DNA from: a virus
Lineage: Duplodnaviria > Heunggongvirae > Uroviricota > Caudoviricetes
Virus record (IMG/VR): IMGVR_UViG_2617270947_000015
Reading direction: 5' to 3' (one strand)
Length of the DNA stretch: 11,129 bases
Under the pieces are notes generated by a model, which saw only the letters and a list, made by a program, of their open reading frames with translations, did not search any database and was not told where the DNA came from. Of the stretch, positions 1 to 11,129 are shown one piece after another (the stretch's first letter is position 1; each line of letters opens with the position of its first letter). A program made the position numbers and the translations under genes.

Positions 1-327
1 TCACTTTTTCCAGAGGCGGTCGAACTCCGCCTTCGCAAAATAAGCGGAAGCCTGGCGAAGGATATCGTTACTGCGGCGCAGTTCACGATTTTCACGTTCC
101 AGCTCTTTCAGACGCTGACGTTCAGCGGTGGTGAGCCCTCCATCACCGCCCCCGGTATCCCGCTCATGCTGGCGAACCCAGACACGCAGAGTCTCCGGCG
201 TACAGCCAATCTTTGGAGCAATGGAACAAATTGTCGCCCATTGTGAGTCATATTCGCTCTGACTTTCCAGAACCATACGGACTGCCCGTTGACGGACTTC
301 GGGGGAAAAACGAGTATTTTTAGTCAT
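1..327 (-). CDS. IS3-family transposase OrfA (108 aa, HTH protein)
   Basis: Translation [21 protein letters not shown]...[32 protein letters not shown] has the typical IS3-family OrfA HTH plus leucine-zipper layout. It lies 54 bp inside the terminal inverted repeat. Confidence 0.85.
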
Positions 328-381
328 CCTGTTTACCTCTTTCTCAGGAAGTTTAGTCTCCAGGATTCCCGGGGCGGTTCA
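1..381 (-). mobile_element. Partial IS3-family insertion sequence (IS629/IS1203/IS3411-like); one terminus at 381, remainder off the left edge
   Basis: Read on the minus strand from 381 the sequence is TGAACCGCCCCGGGAATCCTGGAGACTAAACTTCC...AGGTAAACAGG-ATG, which matches my recollection of the IS629-type terminal inverted repeat followed directly by orfA. The orfA ORF is complete; orfB would lie beyond position 1. Confidence 0.8.
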
Positions 382-716
382 GGGGCTTCGTTCGTCCTGA
401 AAAACAGAATCTGCAAAATTTTGCCGAAATTATTCCGGTTATTTCCGGCCTTACTGGCGGGAGTGAAACCAATATTGTTAACGCCAGAGCGTTGCAGATG
501 TTTGATGATAAAAAGGGAGTAAATTTAACTTACACCCCTGACGGCAATCAGAATATGAGCATTATCTCTGAGTCAGGTTTCTACAAACTAATAAAAACAA
601 AAAGCGCCCCGTTGCCGGAGCGCCTTTGTGAACAATTAACCTACTGCGCAAAAAATGAATCTGAGCAGTGGGATTATATCAACCATGTGGAGAAGCGCCA
701 CAATTGCCGAATAACG

Positions 717-747
717 GGCAAAACAAAGGCCACCCGCTACGGTGGCC
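717..747 (-). terminator. Rho-independent terminator for the leftward small-gene operon
   Basis: Perfect 7-bp stem GGCCACC (728-734) / GGTGGCC (741-747) with a 6-nt loop. On the minus strand it is followed by TTTGTTTTG. It sits 80 bp downstream of the minus-strand ORF that ends at 827. Confidence 0.6.
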
Positions 748-826
748 CCTCGACACAAGCTACACGTTATCCCCAACGCATGAGCATTGCCAACAATGCC
801 ACATTTGCGGCTGGTGGGCAATGCAA

Positions 827-1000
827 TCAGTCTGGTTCAGTTCGTTGCCATACCTGCAATGAGCGCTTTTCCCTGTACTCTTTAAGGAATTGCTCAAGGG
901 CAAAAGCACATGGCGCGAATCTTTCTGATTCATGCTCTATCTTTCTGCGCCGTCTTTTCCGTGCCGGTGATAATGTTTTGGTCAATTCTTTATCGGTCAT
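827..1000 (-). CDS. Hypothetical small basic protein (57 aa from the second ATG)
   Basis: Lys/Arg/Glu-rich translation MTDKELTKTLSPARKRRRRKIEHESERF.... An AGGA lies about 9 nt upstream of the ATG at 1000; the ORF-track start at 1015 has no Shine-Dalgarno. It is second in the leftward operon and is followed by the terminator at 717-747. Confidence 0.5.
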   Translation of the reverse strand: MTDKELTKTLSPARKRRRRKIEHESERFAPCAFALEQFLKEYREKRSLQVWQRTEPD

Positions 1001-1057
1001 TGTGTTGTCCTGCATAGCAATGCGCCGTAGTTACTCACACCACGGCGCTGGTGATGG

Positions 1058-1237
1058 TTACTCCTGCTCTTTGGCCTTGCGGCGCTGGCGGCGTTTGATT
1101 TCGCCGCGCATGGCTGCGTTTATAAACTGTCCCGTGCTTTCGCCTTCTTCTTTCACGTTCTCCATGCCTTCAATAATTTCATGGGCAATACGTGCAGTTA
1201 CAGATTGTGATTTTGCATTCTTTGGACCCGTTGCCAT
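1058..1237 (-). CDS. Hypothetical small protein (59 aa); candidate regulator, first gene of the leftward operon
   Basis: The internal ATG at 1237 is preceded on the minus strand by GAGGGG at good spacing (GAGGGGTTAAAC-ATG). Translation is MATGPKNAKSQSVTARIAHEIIEGMENVKEEGESTGQFINAAMRGEIKRRQRRKAKEQE. It sits directly beside the operator-bearing divergent promoter region. The ORF-track start at 1276 is probably too long. Confidence 0.5.
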   Translation of the reverse strand: MATGPKNAKSQSVTARIAHEIIEGMENVKEEGESTGQFINAAMRGEIKRRQRRKAKEQE

Positions 1238-1257
1238 GTTTAACCCCTCATGTTTTT

Positions 1258-1339
1258 GGTGTAAGACAATATACACGAAAAAAAAATATTTTGAAGGGTT
1301 GACGTGTAAGACACCATTGTTTTACATTGTGTCTTACAC
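1258..1339. promoter_or_regulatory. Divergent promoter region with three copies of an 11-bp operator-like motif
   Basis: GGTGTAAGACA at 1258-1268, GTGTAAGACAC at 1304-1314 and its exact inverse GTGTCTTACAC at 1329-1339. Rightward candidate promoter: TTGACG (1299-1304) and TACATT (1323-1328), 18-bp spacer. Leftward candidate on the minus strand: TTCAAA and TATATT around 1270-1297. The motifs overlap the spacer or sit just downstream of the -10 of both promoters. Confidence 0.55.
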
Positions 1340-1436
1340 CTTATTGATGAAAGGCACAGAAACGACGAAACCCCGCACTGTAGGAGCAGTAACGGGGCTT
1401 CTAACCACCAACGATAGCAACAGTATCGAGGTAGCT

Positions 1437-1637
1437 ATGAGAAATCATACCACACACCCGAAAGGGCGGGACTCGCACAACCTGAATAAATACATCTGGC
1501 GTTTTATCGCCCTGAGCACGGCACAACCGCGCGTGATTACCATTGAGGCCACCAGCGAACAGGAAGCACGCCAGCAATCTCCGGCTGGCTGCGTGATGGT
1601 ATTTGCTGCCCGTATTCGTCAGGGGGTAGGCTTATGA
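1437..1637 (+). CDS. Hypothetical protein (66 aa), first gene of the rightward operon
   Basis: GAGGT Shine-Dalgarno 5 nt before the ATG at 1437. Translation MRNHTTHPKGRDSHNLNKYIWRFIALSTAQPRVITIEATSEQEARQQ.... Its stop overlaps the next start (ATGA). The long 492..1637 track ORF is in the same frame but its upstream part looks non-coding. Confidence 0.5.
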   Translation: MRNHTTHPKGRDSHNLNKYIWRFIALSTAQPRVITIEATSEQEARQQSPAGCVMVFAARIRQGVGL

Positions 1638-2309: not shown

Positions 2310-2609
2310 ATGAAACTTAAATATTCTGGCTTAACTGCCAGTGGCAAAACTCGCACTAAATTCATGCGCGGTGATATTTACCGCGACCAGTACGGCGGCA
2401 CGGTAATGATTAAGGGCGTGGAGGAACGGCGCGTAACCTACCGTCGTGAAGGCTACGAATATGATTGCGTGATGCCTGTTTATCAGTTCGATCGTGATTT
2501 TTCTCTGGTGCAGGCCGTACCGCGTAACGTGCCCACCAGCAGGGAGAAAGCACGCGCCAATATTCAGGAAATAAAAAAGATGCTTAACGTATTCAGGGGT
2601 AAGAAATGA
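2310..2609 (+). CDS. Hypothetical protein (99 aa) immediately upstream of and coupled to the primase gene
   Basis: GGAGA Shine-Dalgarno upstream; its stop overlaps the primase start at 2606. Translation MKLKYSGLTASGKTRTKFMRGDIYRDQYGGTVMIKGVEERRVTYRREGYEYD.... Confidence 0.6.
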   Translation: MKLKYSGLTASGKTRTKFMRGDIYRDQYGGTVMIKGVEERRVTYRREGYEYDCVMPVYQFDRDFSLVQAVPRNVPTSREKARANIQEIKKMLNVFRGKK

Positions 2610-4360
2610 AACTGGCACCGAACGTAAAAAAACAACCACGCGGAATAAAACACAAAGACACAGAGGTAATTATTTTCGCGGGTAGTGATGCGTGGTCACA
2701 TGCAAAACAGTGGCAGGAGCAGGACGGCCCCGCATCCGGCGATAATGTGCCGCCTGTGTGGCTTGGGCCAAATCAGCTTGCCGAACTTGATGCGCTGAAA
2801 ATTGTTCCGGATGGGAAAAAGCGCGTAAGGCTGTACCAGGCCGGAGAACTGGATTTAGTGGAGACCAAAAAGATTGGTCAGAAGCTGGCGGCGGCAGATA
2901 TTCAGGACGCAAATTTTTACCCTGATGGTATGCACGGTCAGAAGGTGGAGAACTGGCGCGAATATCTGGCCCGTGAGCGCCAGAATCTTTCTGATGGTCT
3001 GGTCATTGAGCTTCCGGTAAAGCAAAAGGCGCAACTTTCGCAGATGGCGGACAGTGAGCGCGCGCAGCTGCTTGCCGATCGCTTTGATGGCGTTTGCGTA
3101 CATCCTGAAAGTGAAATCGTTCACGTATGGCGCGGCGGGGTATGGTGTCCGGTCAGCACAATGGAACTTAGCCGCGAAATGGTGGCGATCTATTCAGAGC
3201 ACAGGGCCACTTTCAGCAAGCGCGTAATCAATAACGCCGTGGAAGCGTTAAAAGTTATTGCCGAACCAATGGGCGAGCCGTCCGGCGATTTGCTGCCGTT
3301 CGCCAATGGTGCGCTTGACCTGAAAACGGGGGAATTTTCCCCGCACACGCCGGAGAACTGGATCACCACGCACAACGGCATTGAGTACACGCCACCAGCA
3401 CCAGGGGAGAACATCCGCGATAACGCGCCAAACTTTCATAAATGGCTTAAGCACGCAGCCGGAAAAGACCCGCGCAAGATGATGCGTATATGTGCCGCGC
3501 TGTACATGATTATGGCGAACCGGTACGACTGGCAGATGTTTATTGAGGCCACCGGAGACGGCGGGAGCGGTAAAAGTACATTCACGCACATAGCCAGCCT
3601 TCTGGCAGGGAAACAGAACACGGTAAGCGCTGAAATGACATCGCTTGATGATGCTGGTGGACGTGCGCAGGTTGTCGGGAGTCGTCTTATCGTCCTAGCT
3701 GACCAGCCGAAATATACAGGCGAAGGAACGGGCATCAAGAAAATCACGGGCGGTGACCCCGTGGAAATTAACCCGAAATACGAAAAGCGTTTCACGGCTG
3801 TAATCAGGGCGGTGGTGCTGGCGACCAACAATAACCCGATGATATTCACCGAACGGGCCGAAGGTGTGGCACGTCGTCGCGTGATTTTCCGTTTCGACAA
3901 TATCGTCAGTGAGGCCGAAAAAGACAGGGAGCTACCGGAAAAGATCGCGGCTGAAATCCCTGTCATTATCCGCCGATTGCTGGCGAACTTTACCGACCCT
4001 GAGAAGGCACGGGCTTTACTACTGGAACAGCGTGACGGTGATGAAGCACTGGCAATAAAGCAACAGACGGATCCGGTTATTGAGTTTTGCCAGTTCCTGA
4101 ATTTTCTGGAGGAAGCGCGCGGCCTGATGATGGGGGGCGGTGGCGATTCAGTGAAGTACACGACCAGGAACAGCCTTTACCGCGTCTATCTGGCGTTTAT
4201 GGCATACGCAGGCAGGAGCAAACCGCTAAACGTAAATGACTTTGGAAAGGCTATGAAGCCTGCCGCAAAAGTTTACGGACATGAATATATTACGCGGAAA
4301 GTTAAGGGGGTAACGCAGACTAACGCAATAACAACAGACGAGTGCGACGCGTTTTTATAA
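2606..4360 (+). CDS. Satellite/phage replication protein: P4/D5-family primase-helicase-like NTPase (584 aa)
   Basis: Walker A GDGGSGKST and Walker B-like RLIVLAD motifs in the C-terminal half, with the overall D5_N / P4-family primase C-terminal (SF3 helicase-like) layout. It is followed immediately by an iteron array. The N-terminal ~300 aa are of unclear domain identity. Confidence 0.85.
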   Translation: MKLAPNVKKQPRGIKHKDTEVIIFAGSDAWSHAKQWQEQDGPASGDNVPPVWLGPNQLAELDALKIVPDGKKRVRLYQAGELDLVETKKIGQKLAAADIQDANFYPDGMHGQKVENWREYLARERQNLSDGLVIELPVKQKAQLSQMADSERAQLLADRFDGVCVHPESEIVHVWRGGVWCPVSTMELSREMVAIYSEHRATFSKRVINNAVEALKVIAEPMGEPSGDLLPFANGALDLKTGEFSPHTPENWITTHNGIEYTPPAPGENIRDNAPNFHKWLKHAAGKDPRKMMRICAALYMIMANRYDWQMFIEATGDGGSGKSTFTHIASLLAGKQNTVSAEMTSLDDAGGRAQVVGSRLIVLADQPKYTGEGTGIKKITGGDPVEINPKYEKRFTAVIRAVVLATNNNPMIFTERAEGVARRRVIFRFDNIVSEAEKDRELPEKIAAEIPVIIRRLLANFTDPEKARALLLEQRDGDEALAIKQQTDPVIEFCQFLNFLEEARGLMMGGGGDSVKYTTRNSLYRVYLAFMAYAGRSKPLNVNDFGKAMKPAAKVYGHEYITRKVKGVTQTNAITTDECDAFL

Positions 4361-4373
4361 TTTTTTGTAATTG

Positions 4374-4600
4374 CTGTCTACCCTGTCTACCTGAGTAAAG
4401 AAAAATACATTTAATTCAGTGCATTAAGTTAGGTAGACAGCCTTTTTTTACTGTCTACCCACTATCTACCCTCTCTACCTGATTTTACCTGAATCAGACA
4501 GGGAGGTAGACACGGGGTAGATAGTGGATAAAAGCACTCTACCCCGCTGAAAGCCGCGCCATTACTGGCATGAGGGCCACTAAGGTAGATAAGGTAGACA
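4374..4600. repeat. Iteron array, putative replication origin
   Basis: At least 11 copies of an 8-mer TGTCTACC / GGTAGACA (variants TATCTACC, GGTAGATA, CTCTACC) in both orientations, e.g. 4376-4383, 4384-4391, 4432-4439, 4452-4459, 4463-4470, 4505-4512, 4517-4524, 4584-4591, 4593-4600. Non-coding and directly downstream of the primase-helicase gene. Confidence 0.8.
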
Positions 4601-4648
4601 AGGGGAGGCACAACTCAAAACTTTTTAAACGAGGGGGTAAAAATAAAT

Positions 4649-4927
4649 ATGCACACTTCAGGGAAATTTAATAAATCACTCAAAAAACGCAGAGACAGAA
4701 CAGAACCGAAATATCGCGCGTTAGACATGACAGAGCACGCTTTAAAGGTGGCAATCAGAACGATAGACCGCCACGCGGGGGAAGGATACGCGAAAGCACA
4801 TCCCGAACTGATAAGCGCATTCATGACCACGACGGCGGCAAATTTTGCCACGCTGACAGAGCGGGAGATTGCCGAAGCGGAACAGGTAACAACCATCAAC
4901 GTTAAAACCGGAGAGGTGGAATCATGA
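4649..4927 (+). CDS. Hypothetical protein (92 aa)
   Basis: GAGGGGG upstream of the ATG at 4649. Its stop overlaps the SSB start (ATGA at 4924). Translation MHTSGKFNKSLKKRRDRTEPKYRALDMTEHALKVAIRTIDRHAGEGYAKAHPEL.... Confidence 0.55.
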   Translation: MHTSGKFNKSLKKRRDRTEPKYRALDMTEHALKVAIRTIDRHAGEGYAKAHPELISAFMTTTAANFATLTEREIAEAEQVTTINVKTGEVES

Positions 4928-5346
4928 CAGCACAGATAGCAGCTTACGGGCGGCTGGTGGACGACCCGCAGGTAAAACAGACCAGCAAGGGCACACCGAT
5001 GACGCTGGCGCGTATGGCGGTCCCCCTTCCGTGCAGCCAGGCAGATGACGGAACGGCGACGATGTGGTTATCCGTCCTGGCATTTGGCAGACAGGCCGAA
5101 GCACTGGAAAGGCACCGCAAGGGTGAACTCCTGAGCGTGGCGGGTAACATGCAGATCAGCCAGTGGACTGGGCAGAACGGAGAAACGCGGCAGGGCTGGC
5201 AGGTTATCGCAGACAGTGTAATCAGTGCGCGAACGGCGCGACTGGGCGGCAAAAAAGGTCAACAGGGCCAGGCTACTGACGCGCTGAACAGGGCAAAACA
5301 ACAGGCGGGGAATGATGATCCGTACGGGGATAACATACCGTTTTAA
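4924..5346 (+). CDS. ssb: Single-stranded DNA-binding protein (SSB-like, 140 aa)
   Basis: GGAGAGG Shine-Dalgarno. OB-fold-like core (LSVLAFGRQAEALERHRKGELLSVAGNMQISQWTGQNGETRQGWQVIADSV) followed by a Gly/Gln-rich linker and an acidic C-terminal tip DDPYGDNIPF, resembling the SSB DDDIPF tail. Confidence 0.8.
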   Translation: MTAQIAAYGRLVDDPQVKQTSKGTPMTLARMAVPLPCSQADDGTATMWLSVLAFGRQAEALERHRKGELLSVAGNMQISQWTGQNGETRQGWQVIADSVISARTARLGGKKGQQGQATDALNRAKQQAGNDDPYGDNIPF

Positions 5347-7826: not shown

Positions 7827-7900
7827 ACGGGTCCTTTCCGGCATATGGACCCGTTACGGGGCGGCGACCTCGCGGGTTTTCGCTATTTATGACGTTTTTC
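7827..7900 (+). other. Lambda-type cos site (cosQ-cosN plus start of cosB), intact copy A
   Basis: ACGGGTCCTTTCCGG...GTTACG-GGGCGGCGACCTCGCGGGTTTTCGCTATTTATGA. The 12-nt lambda cohesive-end sequence GGGCGGCGACCT is exact at 7859-7870, and the flanks match the lambda right-end/left-end junction as I recall it. A Nu1-like gene follows, as in lambda. Confidence 0.85.
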
Positions 7901-7959: not shown

Positions 7960-8400
7960 ATGATTGATAAAGCTTGTTTTGTAAGTCAGCAGGAAATAGC
8001 TGAACATTTCAAGGTTAACAGAACCACTATTCGCGCATGGACCAAACAGGGGATGCCGTATCTTAATGCGGATCGCGGAAAGTCTGGCGGTTATCACATC
8101 GGGCATACATTGCTTTGGTCTTCAGGTAAAAGCCGTCTTGAGGCCATCAGATATCACGTAGAAACCAGTGCGCTGGAAAAAATTATGTTTGCCAGGCTGC
8201 TTTCATCTGAGCGTGACGAGTACTCCAGTGAAGAAACAGAACATCGATTTGATGAAGGTTTGCAGATTTACGGCTATTCACCGGAAGATGTGAGCAAGGC
8301 ACGAAATAAAATGGCTGGCTTTCTGGCTGGGTGGCGTCATGCCGTAAGCGTTCGCCGTGCCAGCATGGAACAATCAGTCGTTACAGAACAGCAAAGTTAA
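7960..8400 (+). CDS. Small-terminase-like DNA-binding protein (lambda Nu1-like winged HTH N-terminus, 146 aa); candidate cos-recognition / packaging-redirection factor
   Basis: N-terminus VSQQEIAEHFKVNRTTIRAWTKQGMPYLNADRGKSGG aligns with lambda Nu1 VNKKQLADIFGASIRTIQNWQEQGMPVLRGGGKGN. It sits about 60 bp downstream of cos, in the lambda Nu1 position, but no large-terminase gene follows. Confidence 0.7.
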   Translation: MIDKACFVSQQEIAEHFKVNRTTIRAWTKQGMPYLNADRGKSGGYHIGHTLLWSSGKSRLEAIRYHVETSALEKIMFARLLSSERDEYSSEETEHRFDEGLQIYGYSPEDVSKARNKMAGFLAGWRHAVSVRRASMEQSVVTEQQS

Positions 8401-8580: not shown

Positions 8581-8595
8581 TCCCTCTAAAAAAGC

Positions 8596-8663
8596 TCATA
8601 AATAGCGAAAAACCGCGAGGTCGCCGCCCCGTAACGGGCCATAATTCCAGGAAGGACCCGACG
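8596..8663 (-). other. Second lambda-type cos site in inverted orientation (copy C)
   Basis: Minus-strand reading is GGGTCCTTCCTGGAATTATGGCCCGTTACG-GGGCGGCGACCTCGCGGTTTTTCGCTATTTATGA. The reverse complement of the 12-mer, AGGTCGCCGCCC, is at 8618-8629. About 65 bp are near-identical to copy A, but this copy lacks the upstream terminator hairpin. Confidence 0.8.
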
Positions 8664-9668: not shown

Positions 9669-11129
9669 TTATTCATCTTTCGGCGCAGAATGCTGGCGAC
9701 CAAAAATCACCTCCATCCGCGCACCGCCCAGCATGCTCTCTCCGGCGACGATTTTACCCTCATATTGCTCGGTGATTTCGCGGGCTACCGCCAGCCCTAC
9801 ACCTTGCCCAGGGCGTAAAGTATCAACCCGTTGACCACGGTCGAAAATGACCTCTCGCTTGCTTAATGGAATACCGGGGCCATCATCCTCGACCACAATA
9901 TAGAGATGCTCGTCGGTTTGCCTTGCAGAAATTTCGACAAACTCGAGGCAATATTTACAGGCATTATCCAGCACGTTGCCCATCACCTCGACAAAATCGT
10001 TCTGCTCACCGACAAAGCTGATCTCTGGCGAAATATCGAGAGAGATATTGACCCCTTTGCGTTGATACACTTTGTTCAGCGCTGAGGTGAGATTGTCCAG
10101 CAGTGGGGCGACCGGATGCAGCTCGCGGCTGAGCAATGTCCCGCCGCGCATACTGGCACGATGCAGGTAGTAGCCAATTTGCTGTGAAATGCGGCTGATT
10201 TGCTCCAGCATTACCGGCTCAGCATCACTGACGCTCATCTTTTCACTACGCAGAGAACGCAGCGTACTTTGCAGCACCGCCAGTGGCGTTTTCAGACTAT
10301 GGGTCAGGTCGGTGAGCGTCGTACGGTATTTGTCGTAACGTTCGCGTTCACTTTTTAACAATCGGTTCAGGTTTCGTACCAGACTGGTCAGTTCTCGCGT
10401 TGTGGCTGGATTGAGCAATTCGCGGTTATGTTCTTCCAGTTCGCGGACTTCTTTTGCCAGGGCTTCGATGGGGCGTAAACTCCACCAGGCGGCGACCCAC
10501 AGCAGCGGGATCACTAACAGCAGATTGGCTGAGAGCACATAGATAAACCAGCTCCAGACCATATAGGAACTTTTTAGCTCCACCGGAATGGTATCCACCA
10601 CCACAATGGTTAATTTTGGCATCCGCGATGTTGCCGGGTAGACGTTTACTGCCACCGAGTGGGTCATCTCCGCGTCGTCATCATCTTCCCGCACTTCCTG
10701 CAACTGTTGCTGTATCGAATGATCTCCACTCAGCAAGAGGCTGGTATCGTTAACATCCGCTTCAATTTCATGAAAACCATTCGATTTCAGCCAGTCAGGC
10801 TGGATCATCTTCATCAGCCAGGGCACGTCACGTTGCGCCCATAAAAGCTGCCCGTTCTCATCATAAATTAGCGTCATGGTGGGGCTTTGCTTGTCGATAT
10901 TTTCGGGTAACTCGACATGCAACTTATTGTTTTCCCACTTCGCAAGGGTATAGAACAGATTGCTCTCGCCACGTAACAGCCGAAACGTAGTTTTATCGAA
11001 ACTGACGCTATAACCGATCAGCGCGACCATTCCGTAGGCAAGCGAAAGCACCAGTACTACCGCTGCCGTTGCCAACAGAAAACGTACCCGCAGCGAGAGC
11101 GGGAAAAAAAGACGCAGTAATTTTTTCAT
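9669..11129 (-). CDS. phoQ: Sensor histidine kinase PhoQ of the PhoP/PhoQ two-component system, complete, 486 aa
   Basis: Translation [83 protein letters not shown]...HSAPKDE matches E. coli PhoQ: two transmembrane segments, periplasmic sensor domain, HAMP, DHp histidine box ([12 protein letters not shown]) and HATPase domain. The start codon is the last three bases of the window. Confidence 0.97.

What the first reader, a model, noticed from the sequence alone, without database searches (positions are those of the whole stretch)
4374..4600. Dense bidirectional iteron array as satellite origin
More than ten 8-bp TGTCTACC / GGTAGACA repeats lie in about 230 bp immediately after the primase-helicase gene. 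This is the classic organisation of an initiator-binding origin and supports autonomous replication of the island after induction.
Basis: partly seen in the sequence, partly recalled or inferred. Interest (0 to 1): 0.5.

Follow-up and report, generated by a model that had tools for sequence, protein, structure and literature searches.

The report
Known PICI replication origin (iteron array)
The repeat cluster is real and is the replication origin of an EcCICFT073-type phage-inducible chromosomal island of E. coli; the same origin, 98% identical, was cloned and tested in 2018, so the finding is correct but already known.

Summary
Observation confirmed. Eleven copies of the core TCTACC/GGTAGA lie in 4375-4600, starting 14 bp after the stop of gene 2606-4360. 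As 8-mers they are 6 exact TGTCTACC, 4 with one mismatch and 1 with two. Only one other core copy occurs in the 11 kb window.

The window is a PICI of the EcCICFT073 type, inserted between roxA(ycfD) and phoQ. Its origin region has 98% mean column identity to that of EcCICFT073, and the Rep protein is 94% identical. Fillol-Salom et al. 2018 cloned pri-ori (equivalent to window 2562-4671) into a temperature-sensitive plasmid.

Mechanism, inferred: Rep is a P4 alpha-like SF3 helicase. Its C-terminal winged-helix domain matches the P4 origin-binding domain (PDB 1KA8). It would bind the iterons, melt the 40-bp AT-rich spacer and load itself.

Comparative support: repeat sequence changes with Rep type while position and layout stay the same.

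Refinements:
- The left half (4375-4479) is collinear within 4 bp with the P4 ori, and the right half resembles one P4 crr unit.
- Rep lacks the P4 primase domain, so "primase-helicase" is unverified.

Verdict: already known, low interest.

The parts
2606..4360 (+). rep ('pri-rep') gene, 584 aa. It has an N-terminal module with a weak Toprim-like fold (aa 1-135), then D5_N and an SF3 helicase domain (aa 153-424), then a C-terminal winged-helix origin-binding domain (aa 488-579, nt 4067-4342).
   Evidence: Pfam D5_N, DUF5906 and Pox_D5. It is 40% identical to P4 alpha residues 324-762. The C-terminus matches PDB 1KA8 at E=6.8e-7 and the helicase matches SaPI5 PriRep5 (7OLA) at E=1.5e-13. It is 94% identical to EcCICFT073 Pri. 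N-terminal fold.
4375..4479 (.). Left origin module, laid out like the P4 ori. Iterons lie at 4375-4382(+), 4384-4391(+), 4432-4439(-), 4452-4459(+), 4463-4470(+) and 4472-4479(+).
   Evidence: Iteron offsets are 0, 9, 57, 77, 88, 97 here and 0, 10, 53, 75, 86, 96 in the annotated P4 ori, with the same orientations.
4392..4431 (.). 40-bp AT-rich spacer (77.5% A+T) between convergent iterons; the candidate unwinding site.
   Evidence: It is among the roughly 1.5-2% least stable 30-mers of the window. An AT-rich stretch at the same position is present in P4 ori, Serratia, Morganella and L007.
4505..4600 (.). Right origin module, laid out like one P4 crr unit. Iterons lie at 4505-4512(-), 4516-4523(-), 4536-4543(+, degenerate ACTCTACC), 4584-4591(-) and 4593-4600(-).
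   Evidence: Offsets are 0, 11, 31, 79, 88 here, 0, 14, 75, 84 in a P4 crr unit and 0, 10, 20, 30, 75, 84 in Serratia. In L007 this module comes before the left module.
4546..4567 (.). Conserved non-iteron block CTGAAAGCCGCGCCATTACTG inside the right module; function unknown.
   Evidence: Entropy is 0.18 across 59 distinct origins, as low as the iteron cores. A CTGAAA motif sits at the analogous place in both P4 crr units.
2310..2609 (+). DUF4222 gene that overlaps the rep start by 4 nt; it always accompanies rep in relatives.
   Evidence: Pfam DUF4222 at E=5e-24. Annotated upstream of rep in every relative fetched, including the DUF927-type Rep.
4649..4927 (+). Conserved 92-aa ORF of unknown function, the first gene after the origin.
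   Evidence: Annotated homologues in L001-L006 and L008. No family hit.
4924..5346 (+). Island-encoded single-strand DNA-binding protein, a likely replication accessory.
   Evidence: Pfam SSB at E=4.9e-15.

Best explanation
The array 4375-4600 is the replication origin of an EcCICFT073-type phage-inducible chromosomal island.

Shown in a close relative: in EcCICFT073, whose origin is 98% identical, the pri gene plus this intergenic region forms a replicon. Deleting either part cripples it.

Inferred here, step by step:
- After helper-phage induction, Rep is made. It is an SF3 helicase with a P4 alpha-type C-terminal winged-helix domain.
- The winged-helix domain binds the 11 iterons. These share the core TCTACC, with a 2-nt 5' flank that sets a specificity class.
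- Neighbouring iterons are 9-11 bp apart, so they lie on one face of the helix. They converge on a 40-bp AT-rich spacer (4392-4431).
- Rep oligomerises there, melts the spacer and loads itself as a hexameric helicase without a separate loader.
- The island's own SSB coats the unwound strands.
- Rep lacks a recognisable active primase, so priming and synthesis probably use host DnaG and Pol III.

The origin appears to be built from two modules: a P4-ori-like module (4375-4479) and one P4-crr-like unit (4505-4600) placed side by side.
For: Statistics: 11 of the window's 12 core copies lie in 226 bp.

Identity with a tested origin:
- The insertion site is the same and the origin region has 98% mean column identity to EcCICFT073. 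Rep is 94% identical.
- Published pri-ori, pri-delta-ori and delta-pri-ori plasmid tests and pri-dependent island replication are in PMC6092414.
- Mapping the primers shows that the deleted 'ori' corresponds to window 4365-4671.

Initiator:
- The C-terminal domain is homologous to the P4 origin-binding winged helix, 1KA8 (PMC2777425).
- The helicase is homologous to the SaPI5 PriRep5 self-loading helicase. SaPI Reps bind iterons immediately 3' of rep (PMC9371898).

Covariation: position, copy number (9-11) and layout are kept while the repeat changes with the Rep.
- T[G/A]TCTACC or C[C/A/T]TCTACC in E. coli D5-type Reps.
- CTGTTCAC in Serratia (53% identical Rep).
- [A/G]TGTTCAT in Morganella.
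- TGTTCACC in P4.
- TGGGAC[A/G]AC with a DUF927-type Rep.

Conservation: across 59 distinct origins the core columns have entropy 0.18 against 0.69 for other array columns (Mann-Whitney p=1e-11). The 2-nt 5' flank is the most variable, at 1.17.

Specificity classes: in 84 loci the Rep motif N544/G547 goes with T-type iterons (40 loci) and A544/S547 with C-type (43 loci), with 1 exception.

Other points: the origin travels with Rep even when the downstream genes differ (L005 carries TerS and a different capsid gene). The AT-rich spacer has low duplex stability.
Against: - No experiment was done on this exact sequence.
- The within-E. coli association between Rep residues 544/547 and iteron class is confounded by linkage. 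Synonymous sites from codon 543 to the stop are just as associated (r2 0.8-1.0). One natural recombinant, L045, pairs the A/S helix with T-type iterons.
- In P4, the best-studied homologue, the array directly 3' of alpha is crr, not the initiation site.
- The AT-rich spacer is not the least stable stretch in the window.
- Where unwinding and priming start has not been mapped in any PICI paper I read.
- The published delta-ori plasmid reduced colony formation but did not abolish it.
Confidence: 0.9

Rival explanations
1. The array is only a crr-like cis-acting enhancer, a Rep-binding site that helps a distant origin as P4 crr does. On this view replication starts elsewhere in the island.
For: In P4 the repeat array immediately 3' of the alpha gene is crr, while ori lies 4.5 kb away. 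The right half of the window's array resembles a crr unit.
Against: There is no second TCTACC cluster anywhere in the window or in the complete islands L001 and L002. The left half is collinear with P4 ori itself: six iterons with the same orientations and offsets within 4 bp. The EcCICFT073 pri-ori fragment alone sufficed for plasmid maintenance (PMC6092414).
Confidence: 0.05
2. The repeats are operators for a transcription factor (AlpA, PerC-like or other) that controls a promoter for the downstream operon (4649 onward). On this view they are not Rep-binding sites.
For: The array fills the 288-bp intergenic region upstream of the next gene. The last 48 bp (4601-4648) are highly conserved.
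Against: No sigma-70 promoter-like site on the + strand and no terminator beyond chance in 4200-4800. The repeat sequence changes with the Rep type, for example to TGGGACAAC with a DUF927 Rep although the gene order downstream (small hypothetical ORF, then SSB) is the same. The repeats stay the same when the downstream genes differ (L005). Eleven sites in both orientations around an AT-rich spacer are atypical of an operator.
Confidence: 0.03
3. The array is a packaging signal (a cos or pac accessory site bound by terminase or an Rpp-like protein).
For: Satellites need packaging sites, and repeated small-terminase binding sites (such as lambda cosB R sites) exist.
Against: Two exact lambda-type cosN sequences lie elsewhere, at 7859-7870 and 8618-8629. 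This matches the two cos sites reported for EcCICFT073 (PMC6092414). The repeats covary with Rep, not with packaging genes.
Confidence: 0.01

Closest known systems
EcCICFT073 pri-ori replicon (E. coli PICI; Fillol-Salom et al. 2018, ISME J, PMC6092414)
   Same: Same chromosomal site (ycfD/roxA-phoQ) and same gene order: DUF4222, rep, origin, small ORF, SSB, PerC, lambda-E-like capsid protein and D-like decoration protein. All 11 iteron positions are the same and the origin region has 98% mean column identity. Rep is 94% identical, and its DNA-binding domain differs by one conservative residue.
   Different: About 14 substitutions in the 321 aligned bases around the origin. One of them changes an iteron (GGTAGACA here, GGTAGATA in CFT073, at 4505-4512). 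Most Rep differences lie in the N-terminal module. The window's copy has an IS fragment at its left end, just after the alpA position.
Satellite phage P4 alpha / ori / crr replication system
   Same: Rep aligns to alpha residues 324-762 at 40% identity, covering the SF3 helicase and the winged-helix origin-binding domain (1KA8). Both use 8-bp iterons; TGTCTACC matches TGTTCACC at 6 of 8 positions. The left module has the same number, orientation and spacing of iterons as P4 ori, and the right module resembles one crr unit.
   Different: There is no Zn-ribbon or Toprim primase domain. In its place is a 135-aa module with a weak Toprim-like fold that lacks the catalytic acidic residues. The ori-like and crr-like parts are adjacent instead of 4.5 kb apart, and there is one crr-like unit instead of two. 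No terminator lies between rep and the array. The iteron sequence differs.
SaPI Rep-ori (Staphylococcus aureus pathogenicity islands; PriRep5, PDB 7OLA)
   Same: The origin lies immediately 3' of rep, with 6-12 short iterons and an AT-rich region flanked by oppositely oriented iterons. Rep is an SF3 self-loading helicase with a C-terminal winged helix (PMC9371898). The helicase domains are homologous at E=1.5e-13.
   Different: SaPI iterons are 5-6 nt and unrelated in sequence. SaPIs have a separate or fused primase. The host and the island lineage differ.

Membership tests
PICI/SaPI-type replication origin | Lies immediately 3' of the rep (pri-rep) gene | tested here: met
   The first iteron starts 14 bp after the stop codon of ORF 2606-4360.
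PICI/SaPI-type replication origin | Six to twelve short iterons, in both orientations | tested here: met
   Eleven TCTACC cores in 226 bp, 6 on + and 5 on -; 0 of 200 shuffles reach the observed count.
PICI/SaPI-type replication origin | AT-rich region flanked by iterons pointing in opposite directions | tested here: met
   The 40-bp spacer 4392-4431 (77.5% A+T) lies between + + and -, and is in the top roughly 2% of least stable 30-mers. On the right side only one inverted copy abuts the spacer; the next inverted pair is at 4505-4523.
PICI/SaPI-type replication origin | Cognate Rep is a helicase-initiator with a C-terminal winged-helix DNA-binding domain | tested here: met
   SF3 helicase domains. 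Residues 488-579 match the P4 origin-binding domain 1KA8 at E=6.8e-7.
PICI/SaPI-type replication origin | Rep plus origin drive autonomous replication, and deleting either abolishes or reduces it | not testable with these tools
   Shown for EcCICFT073, whose origin is 98% identical, in PMC6092414. Not tested on this sequence.
PICI/SaPI-type replication origin | Resides in a PICI: specific att site, int/alpA, rightward transcription, helper cos site or terS | tested here: inconclusive
   The flanking phoQ, the gene order and two cosN sites match EcCICFT073. int and alpA are not in the window, which begins inside an IS fragment.
P4 alpha-dependent origin (ori + crr) | Initiator with DnaG-type primase (Zn ribbon + Toprim), SF3 helicase and winged-helix domains in one chain | tested here: not met
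   The helicase and winged helix are present (40% identity to alpha 324-762). Zn_Ribbon_Prim and Toprim are found in P4 alpha and the Morganella relative but not here.
P4 alpha-dependent origin (ori + crr) | Type 1 iteron TGTTCACC | tested here: not met
   The iteron here is TGTCTACC (6 of 8 positions shared). TGTTCAC-type iterons occur in the Serratia and Morganella relatives.
P4 alpha-dependent origin (ori + crr) | ori with six iterons arranged ++ / AT-rich / - / +++ | tested here: met
   Offsets 0, 9, 57, 77, 88, 97 against 0, 10, 53, 75, 86, 96 in P4.
P4 alpha-dependent origin (ori + crr) | A second, distant cis-required region (crr) made of two 120-bp repeats | tested here: not met
   There is no second cluster in the window, L001 or L002. 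A single crr-like unit directly abuts the ori-like module.
Iteron-plasmid origin (RepA/pi/TrfA type) | Tandem direct 17-22-bp iterons bound by a non-helicase Rep, with DnaA boxes and DnaB loading by host factors | tested here: not met
   The repeats are 8 bp and lie in both orientations. The initiator is itself a helicase. Only one 8-of-9 DnaA-box-like site is present (4523-4531), and it is not kept in C-type origins.

The most novel reading that the evidence does not exclude
Three linked claims make up the most novel reading that the evidence does not exclude.

1. The E. coli PICI origin is a fusion of the two cis elements that P4 keeps 4.5 kb apart: an ori module and a single crr unit. The modules are separable, because they occur in swapped order in strain ETEC1738.

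2. Rep has lost primase activity. Its N-terminal Toprim-like module lacks the catalytic residues and is exchanged among three unrelated helicase types. The island would then depend on host DnaG, or on a helper factor, for priming.

3. The recognition helix, the wing and the origin are inherited as one 'specificity cassette'. This gives at least two iteron classes (T-type and C-type) that could let co-resident islands replicate independently.
Probability: 0.4. Interest if true: 0.35.

Novelty: already known. Interest (0 to 1): 0.15.

Why it matters
The origin lets the island amplify after helper-phage induction, which underlies the high-frequency transfer of PICIs and their cargo genes. For this sequence the practical value is annotation. 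It identifies the window as an EcCICFT073-type PICI whose replication module looks intact by sequence. It also corrects the 'primase' label.

The comparative refinements could guide work on three questions: replication specificity, incompatibility between satellites, and how a helicase-only initiator gets primed. These refinements are the P4 ori-like plus crr-like module structure, the two iteron classes tied to the recognition helix, and the Toprim-like module that lacks catalytic residues. They are incremental to a system that is already established.

Tried and rejected
- Promoter and terminator scan of 4200-4800: one weak minus-strand promoter-like site and no terminator, no more than chance.
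- Rfam search of 4200-4800: only far-sub-threshold eukaryotic miRNA-hairpin matches, which reflect the inverted iterons. An RNA element was rejected.
- cos site: exact cosN copies lie elsewhere, at 7859 and 8618. A packaging role was rejected.
- DnaA box: one 8-of-9 match at 4523-4531, roughly as expected by chance for the window and not conserved in C-type origins. Not pursued.
- Hairpin in the conserved block 4546-4567: z-scores of -0.1 and -2.1, not convincing. The strong hairpin at 4450-4532 (z -4.3) follows simply from the convergent iterons.
- Genome-contig scan with the Rep protein: only 3 loci, though two were informative.
- Single-sequence AF2 model of the C-terminal domain: low confidence (pLDDT 57). 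It was used only as weak support that residues 543-557 form a helix.
- Attempt to separate functional covariation from linkage inside E. coli: failed. Synonymous sites in the last 40 codons are as tightly linked to origin type as residues 544 and 547.
- PMC9942202 was read for P4 replication facts and gave nothing useful.

Full report
**Observation**

The region 4375-4600 holds eleven copies of the hexamer core TCTACC/GGTAGA. The only other copy in the 11,129-bp window lies inside phoQ at 10637. Dinucleotide-preserving shuffles give 2.46 copies for the whole window, and none of 200 reaches 12.

- As 8-mers, six copies are exact TGTCTACC, against 0.14 expected.
- Four copies have one mismatch: TATCTACC three times and TCTCTACC once.
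- One copy, ACTCTACC at 4536, has two mismatches.
- Orientations are + + - + + + - - + - -.
- Neighbouring copies are 9-11 bp apart.
- The first copy starts 14 bp after the stop codon of ORF 2606-4360.

The description is therefore correct, with the proviso that only six copies are exact.

**What the window is**

The ORFs encode the following:

- an Icd-like protein;
- a DUF4222 protein;
- a 584-aa 'DNA primase family' protein;
- a small ORF;
- SSB;
- a lambda-E-like capsid protein and a lambda-D-like decoration protein.

These are followed by chromosomal phoQ on the right. Megablast finds the rep-origin segment in 780 of 5,426 complete E. coli genomes, always on the chromosome. In close relatives the island sits between roxA (ycfD) and phoQ. 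That is the attachment site listed for EcCICFT073 in the supplement of Fillol-Salom et al. 2018 (PMC6092414).

Direct comparison with strain CFT073 (L002) gives these results:

- The origin region aligns with 98% mean column identity, and all eleven iteron positions are kept.
- The Rep proteins are 94% identical.
- Nearly all Rep differences lie in the first 100 residues, and only one (E579D) lies in the C-terminal domain.

**What is already known**

[quoted passage not shown] It also reports these experiments:

- The EcCICFT073 pri-ori fragment in a temperature-sensitive plasmid gives colonies at 44 degrees C.
- The delta-pri derivative does not.
- Deleting ori significantly reduces colony number.
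- pri is required for island replication after AlpA over-expression.

I mapped their primers. pri-ori corresponds to L002 5198-7307, which is window 2562-4671. pri-delta-ori ends at L002 7000, which is window 4364. The deleted 'ori' is therefore exactly this intergenic repeat region.

**The initiator**

Rep aligns with P4 alpha residues 324-762 at 40% identity. Three further matches describe it:

- Its residues 488-579 match PDB 1KA8 at E=6.8e-7. This is the winged-helix origin-binding domain of P4 alpha (PMC2777425 citing Yeo et al. 2002).
- Its helicase part matches SaPI5 PriRep5 (7OLA) at E=1.5e-13.
- SaPI Reps are self-loading SF3 helicases whose C-terminal winged helix binds iterons located immediately downstream of rep (PMC9371898).

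By my inspection of the sequence, the positions where Toprim has its catalytic Glu and DxD carry invariant A25 and A79-G80. hhalign does not detect the similarity. I therefore treat the module as a probably inactive Toprim-like domain, and the label 'primase-helicase' as unverified.

The same N-terminal module is fused to DUF927 helicases in other E. coli islands. Fragmentary database proteins also show it next to RepA/AAA_25-type helicase domains.

**Comparative evidence that Rep reads the repeats**

Position, copy number (9-11) and layout are conserved in every relative fetched, while the repeat sequence changes with the Rep:

| Rep | Iteron |
|---|---|
| E. coli D5-type Reps | T[G/A]TCTACC or C[C/A/T]TCTACC |
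| Serratia Rep (53% identical) | CTGTTCAC |
| Morganella Rep (52% identical, 794 aa) | [A/G]TGTTCAT |
| P4 alpha | TGTTCACC |
| E. coli DUF927-type Rep | TGGGAC[A/G]AC |

The origin type follows Rep even where the downstream genes differ: L005 is an O157 island with TerS and a differently annotated capsid gene.

Across 59 distinct origin sequences, conservation is as follows:

- The 66 core columns have mean entropy 0.18, with 46 invariant.
- The other array columns have mean entropy 0.69 (Mann-Whitney p=1e-11).
- The two bases 5' of the core are the most variable, at 1.17.

In 84 loci, Rep with N544/G547 goes with T-type iterons in 40 cases. Rep with A544/S547 goes with C-type iterons in 43 cases. 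There is one exception. These residues align with the start of the third helix of the winged helix, which is the recognition helix in this fold (inferred from the 1KA8 alignment, with weak support).

This within-species association is confounded by linkage:

- Synonymous sites from codon 543 to the stop are equally associated (r2 0.8-1.0).
- Association collapses upstream of codon 540.
- The exception, L045, is a recombinant with a crossover about 110 nt before the stop.

The safest reading is that the recognition helix, the wing and the origin are inherited as a block. The cross-genus comparisons carry the functional argument.

**Anatomy compared with P4**

In the P4 record, the array directly 3' of alpha is crr, which consists of two 120-bp repeats. 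The ori, with six type-1 repeats, lies 4.5 kb away.

Left module. Read in the alpha orientation, P4 ori has iterons at offsets 0, 10, -53, 75, 86, 96, where a minus sign marks an inverted copy. Other sequences compare as follows:

- Window left half: 0, 9, -57, 77, 88, 97.
- Serratia: 0, 10, -55, 74, 85, 95.
- Second module of L007: 0, 9, -55, 76, 87, 96.

Right module. All copies are inverted except the one marked +.

- Window right half: 0, 11, +31, 79, 88.
- One P4 crr unit: 0, +14, 75, 84.
- Serratia: 0, 10, 20, +30, 75, 84.

A CTGAAA motif follows the single + copy in both the window and P4 crr.

In strain ETEC1738 (L007) the two modules occur in the opposite order. No second repeat cluster exists in the window or in the complete islands.

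I therefore read this origin as a P4-ori-like module joined directly to a single crr-like unit. The papers I read do not describe it this way, but my reading was limited.

**Other checks**

- The 40-bp spacer 4392-4431 is 77.5% A+T and ranks in the least stable roughly 2% of 30-mers. Other intergenic stretches in the window are less stable still.
- There is no promoter or terminator signal beyond chance.
- There is no Rfam family match.
- The cos sites are elsewhere.
- The conserved block CTGAAAGCCGCGCCATTACTG (4546-4567) is as constrained as the iterons and remains unexplained.

**Verdict**

Both the observation and the interpretation are right. The feature is the already characterised EcCICFT073-type PICI origin. 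The additions here are incremental: the two-module anatomy shared with P4, the two iteron classes, and the missing primase domain. Interest is low.

Noticed in passing
window 7828-7899 and 8589-8660 (cosN at 7859-7870 + and 8618-8629 -): Two exact lambda-type cosN sequences (GGGCGGCGACCT) lie in 72-nt inverted repeats that are 86% complementary. The 689-bp segment between them carries the HTH-like ORF 7960-8400. It is inverted in strain WP4-S17 (L001) relative to the window and CFT073, which suggests inversion by recombination between the two cos repeats.
   Followed up: partly
[not shown]
   Followed up: partly
window 1-381: The window starts inside an IS fragment: ORF 1-327 on the minus strand has an HTH_Tnp_1 transposase domain, and the sequence has thousands of copies in E. 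coli genomes. Homology to EcCICFT073 begins at 382, just after the position of alpA. int and alpA are therefore separated from the rest of the island, or lie outside the window.
   Followed up: partly
window 4546-4567: The non-iteron block CTGAAAGCCGCGCCATTACTG inside the origin is as conserved as the iteron cores across 59 distinct origins. A CTGAAA motif sits at the analogous spot in both P4 crr units. In L007 the equivalent stretch is a perfect 13-bp-stem hairpin (z -7.1). Its function is unknown.
   Followed up: partly
L007 3717-4032 (E. coli ETEC1738, NZ_CP122768.1): The two origin modules are in swapped order, with the crr-like module first and the ori-like module second. They are followed by a truncated RepA-family helicase pseudogene.
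   Followed up: partly
L045 (IMGVR_UViG_3300029303_000153), last 130 nt of rep plus the origin: A natural recombinant pairs the A544/S547 (C-type) recognition-helix segment with a T-type origin. The crossover is about 110 nt before the stop codon. It is the only mismatch among 84 loci.
   Followed up: yes
window 2310-2609: A DUF4222 gene overlaps the rep start codon by 4 nt. It accompanies rep in every relative fetched, including the DUF927-type Rep, which suggests a conserved replication accessory of unknown function.
   Followed up: no
window 4523-4531 (minus strand); P4 (L092) about 4280-4290: A DnaA-box-like TTATCCACT (8 of 9) lies between two iterons. It is kept in T-type but not in C-type origins. 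A perfect TTATCCACA lies just outside P4 crr. This is probably incidental.
   Followed up: partly
window 492-1637: A long 381-aa ORF has a C-terminal 44 residues that match the Icd-like cell-division-inhibitor family. In CFT073 the Icd-like gene is only about 66 aa, while strain Br_112 has a similarly long form.
   Followed up: no
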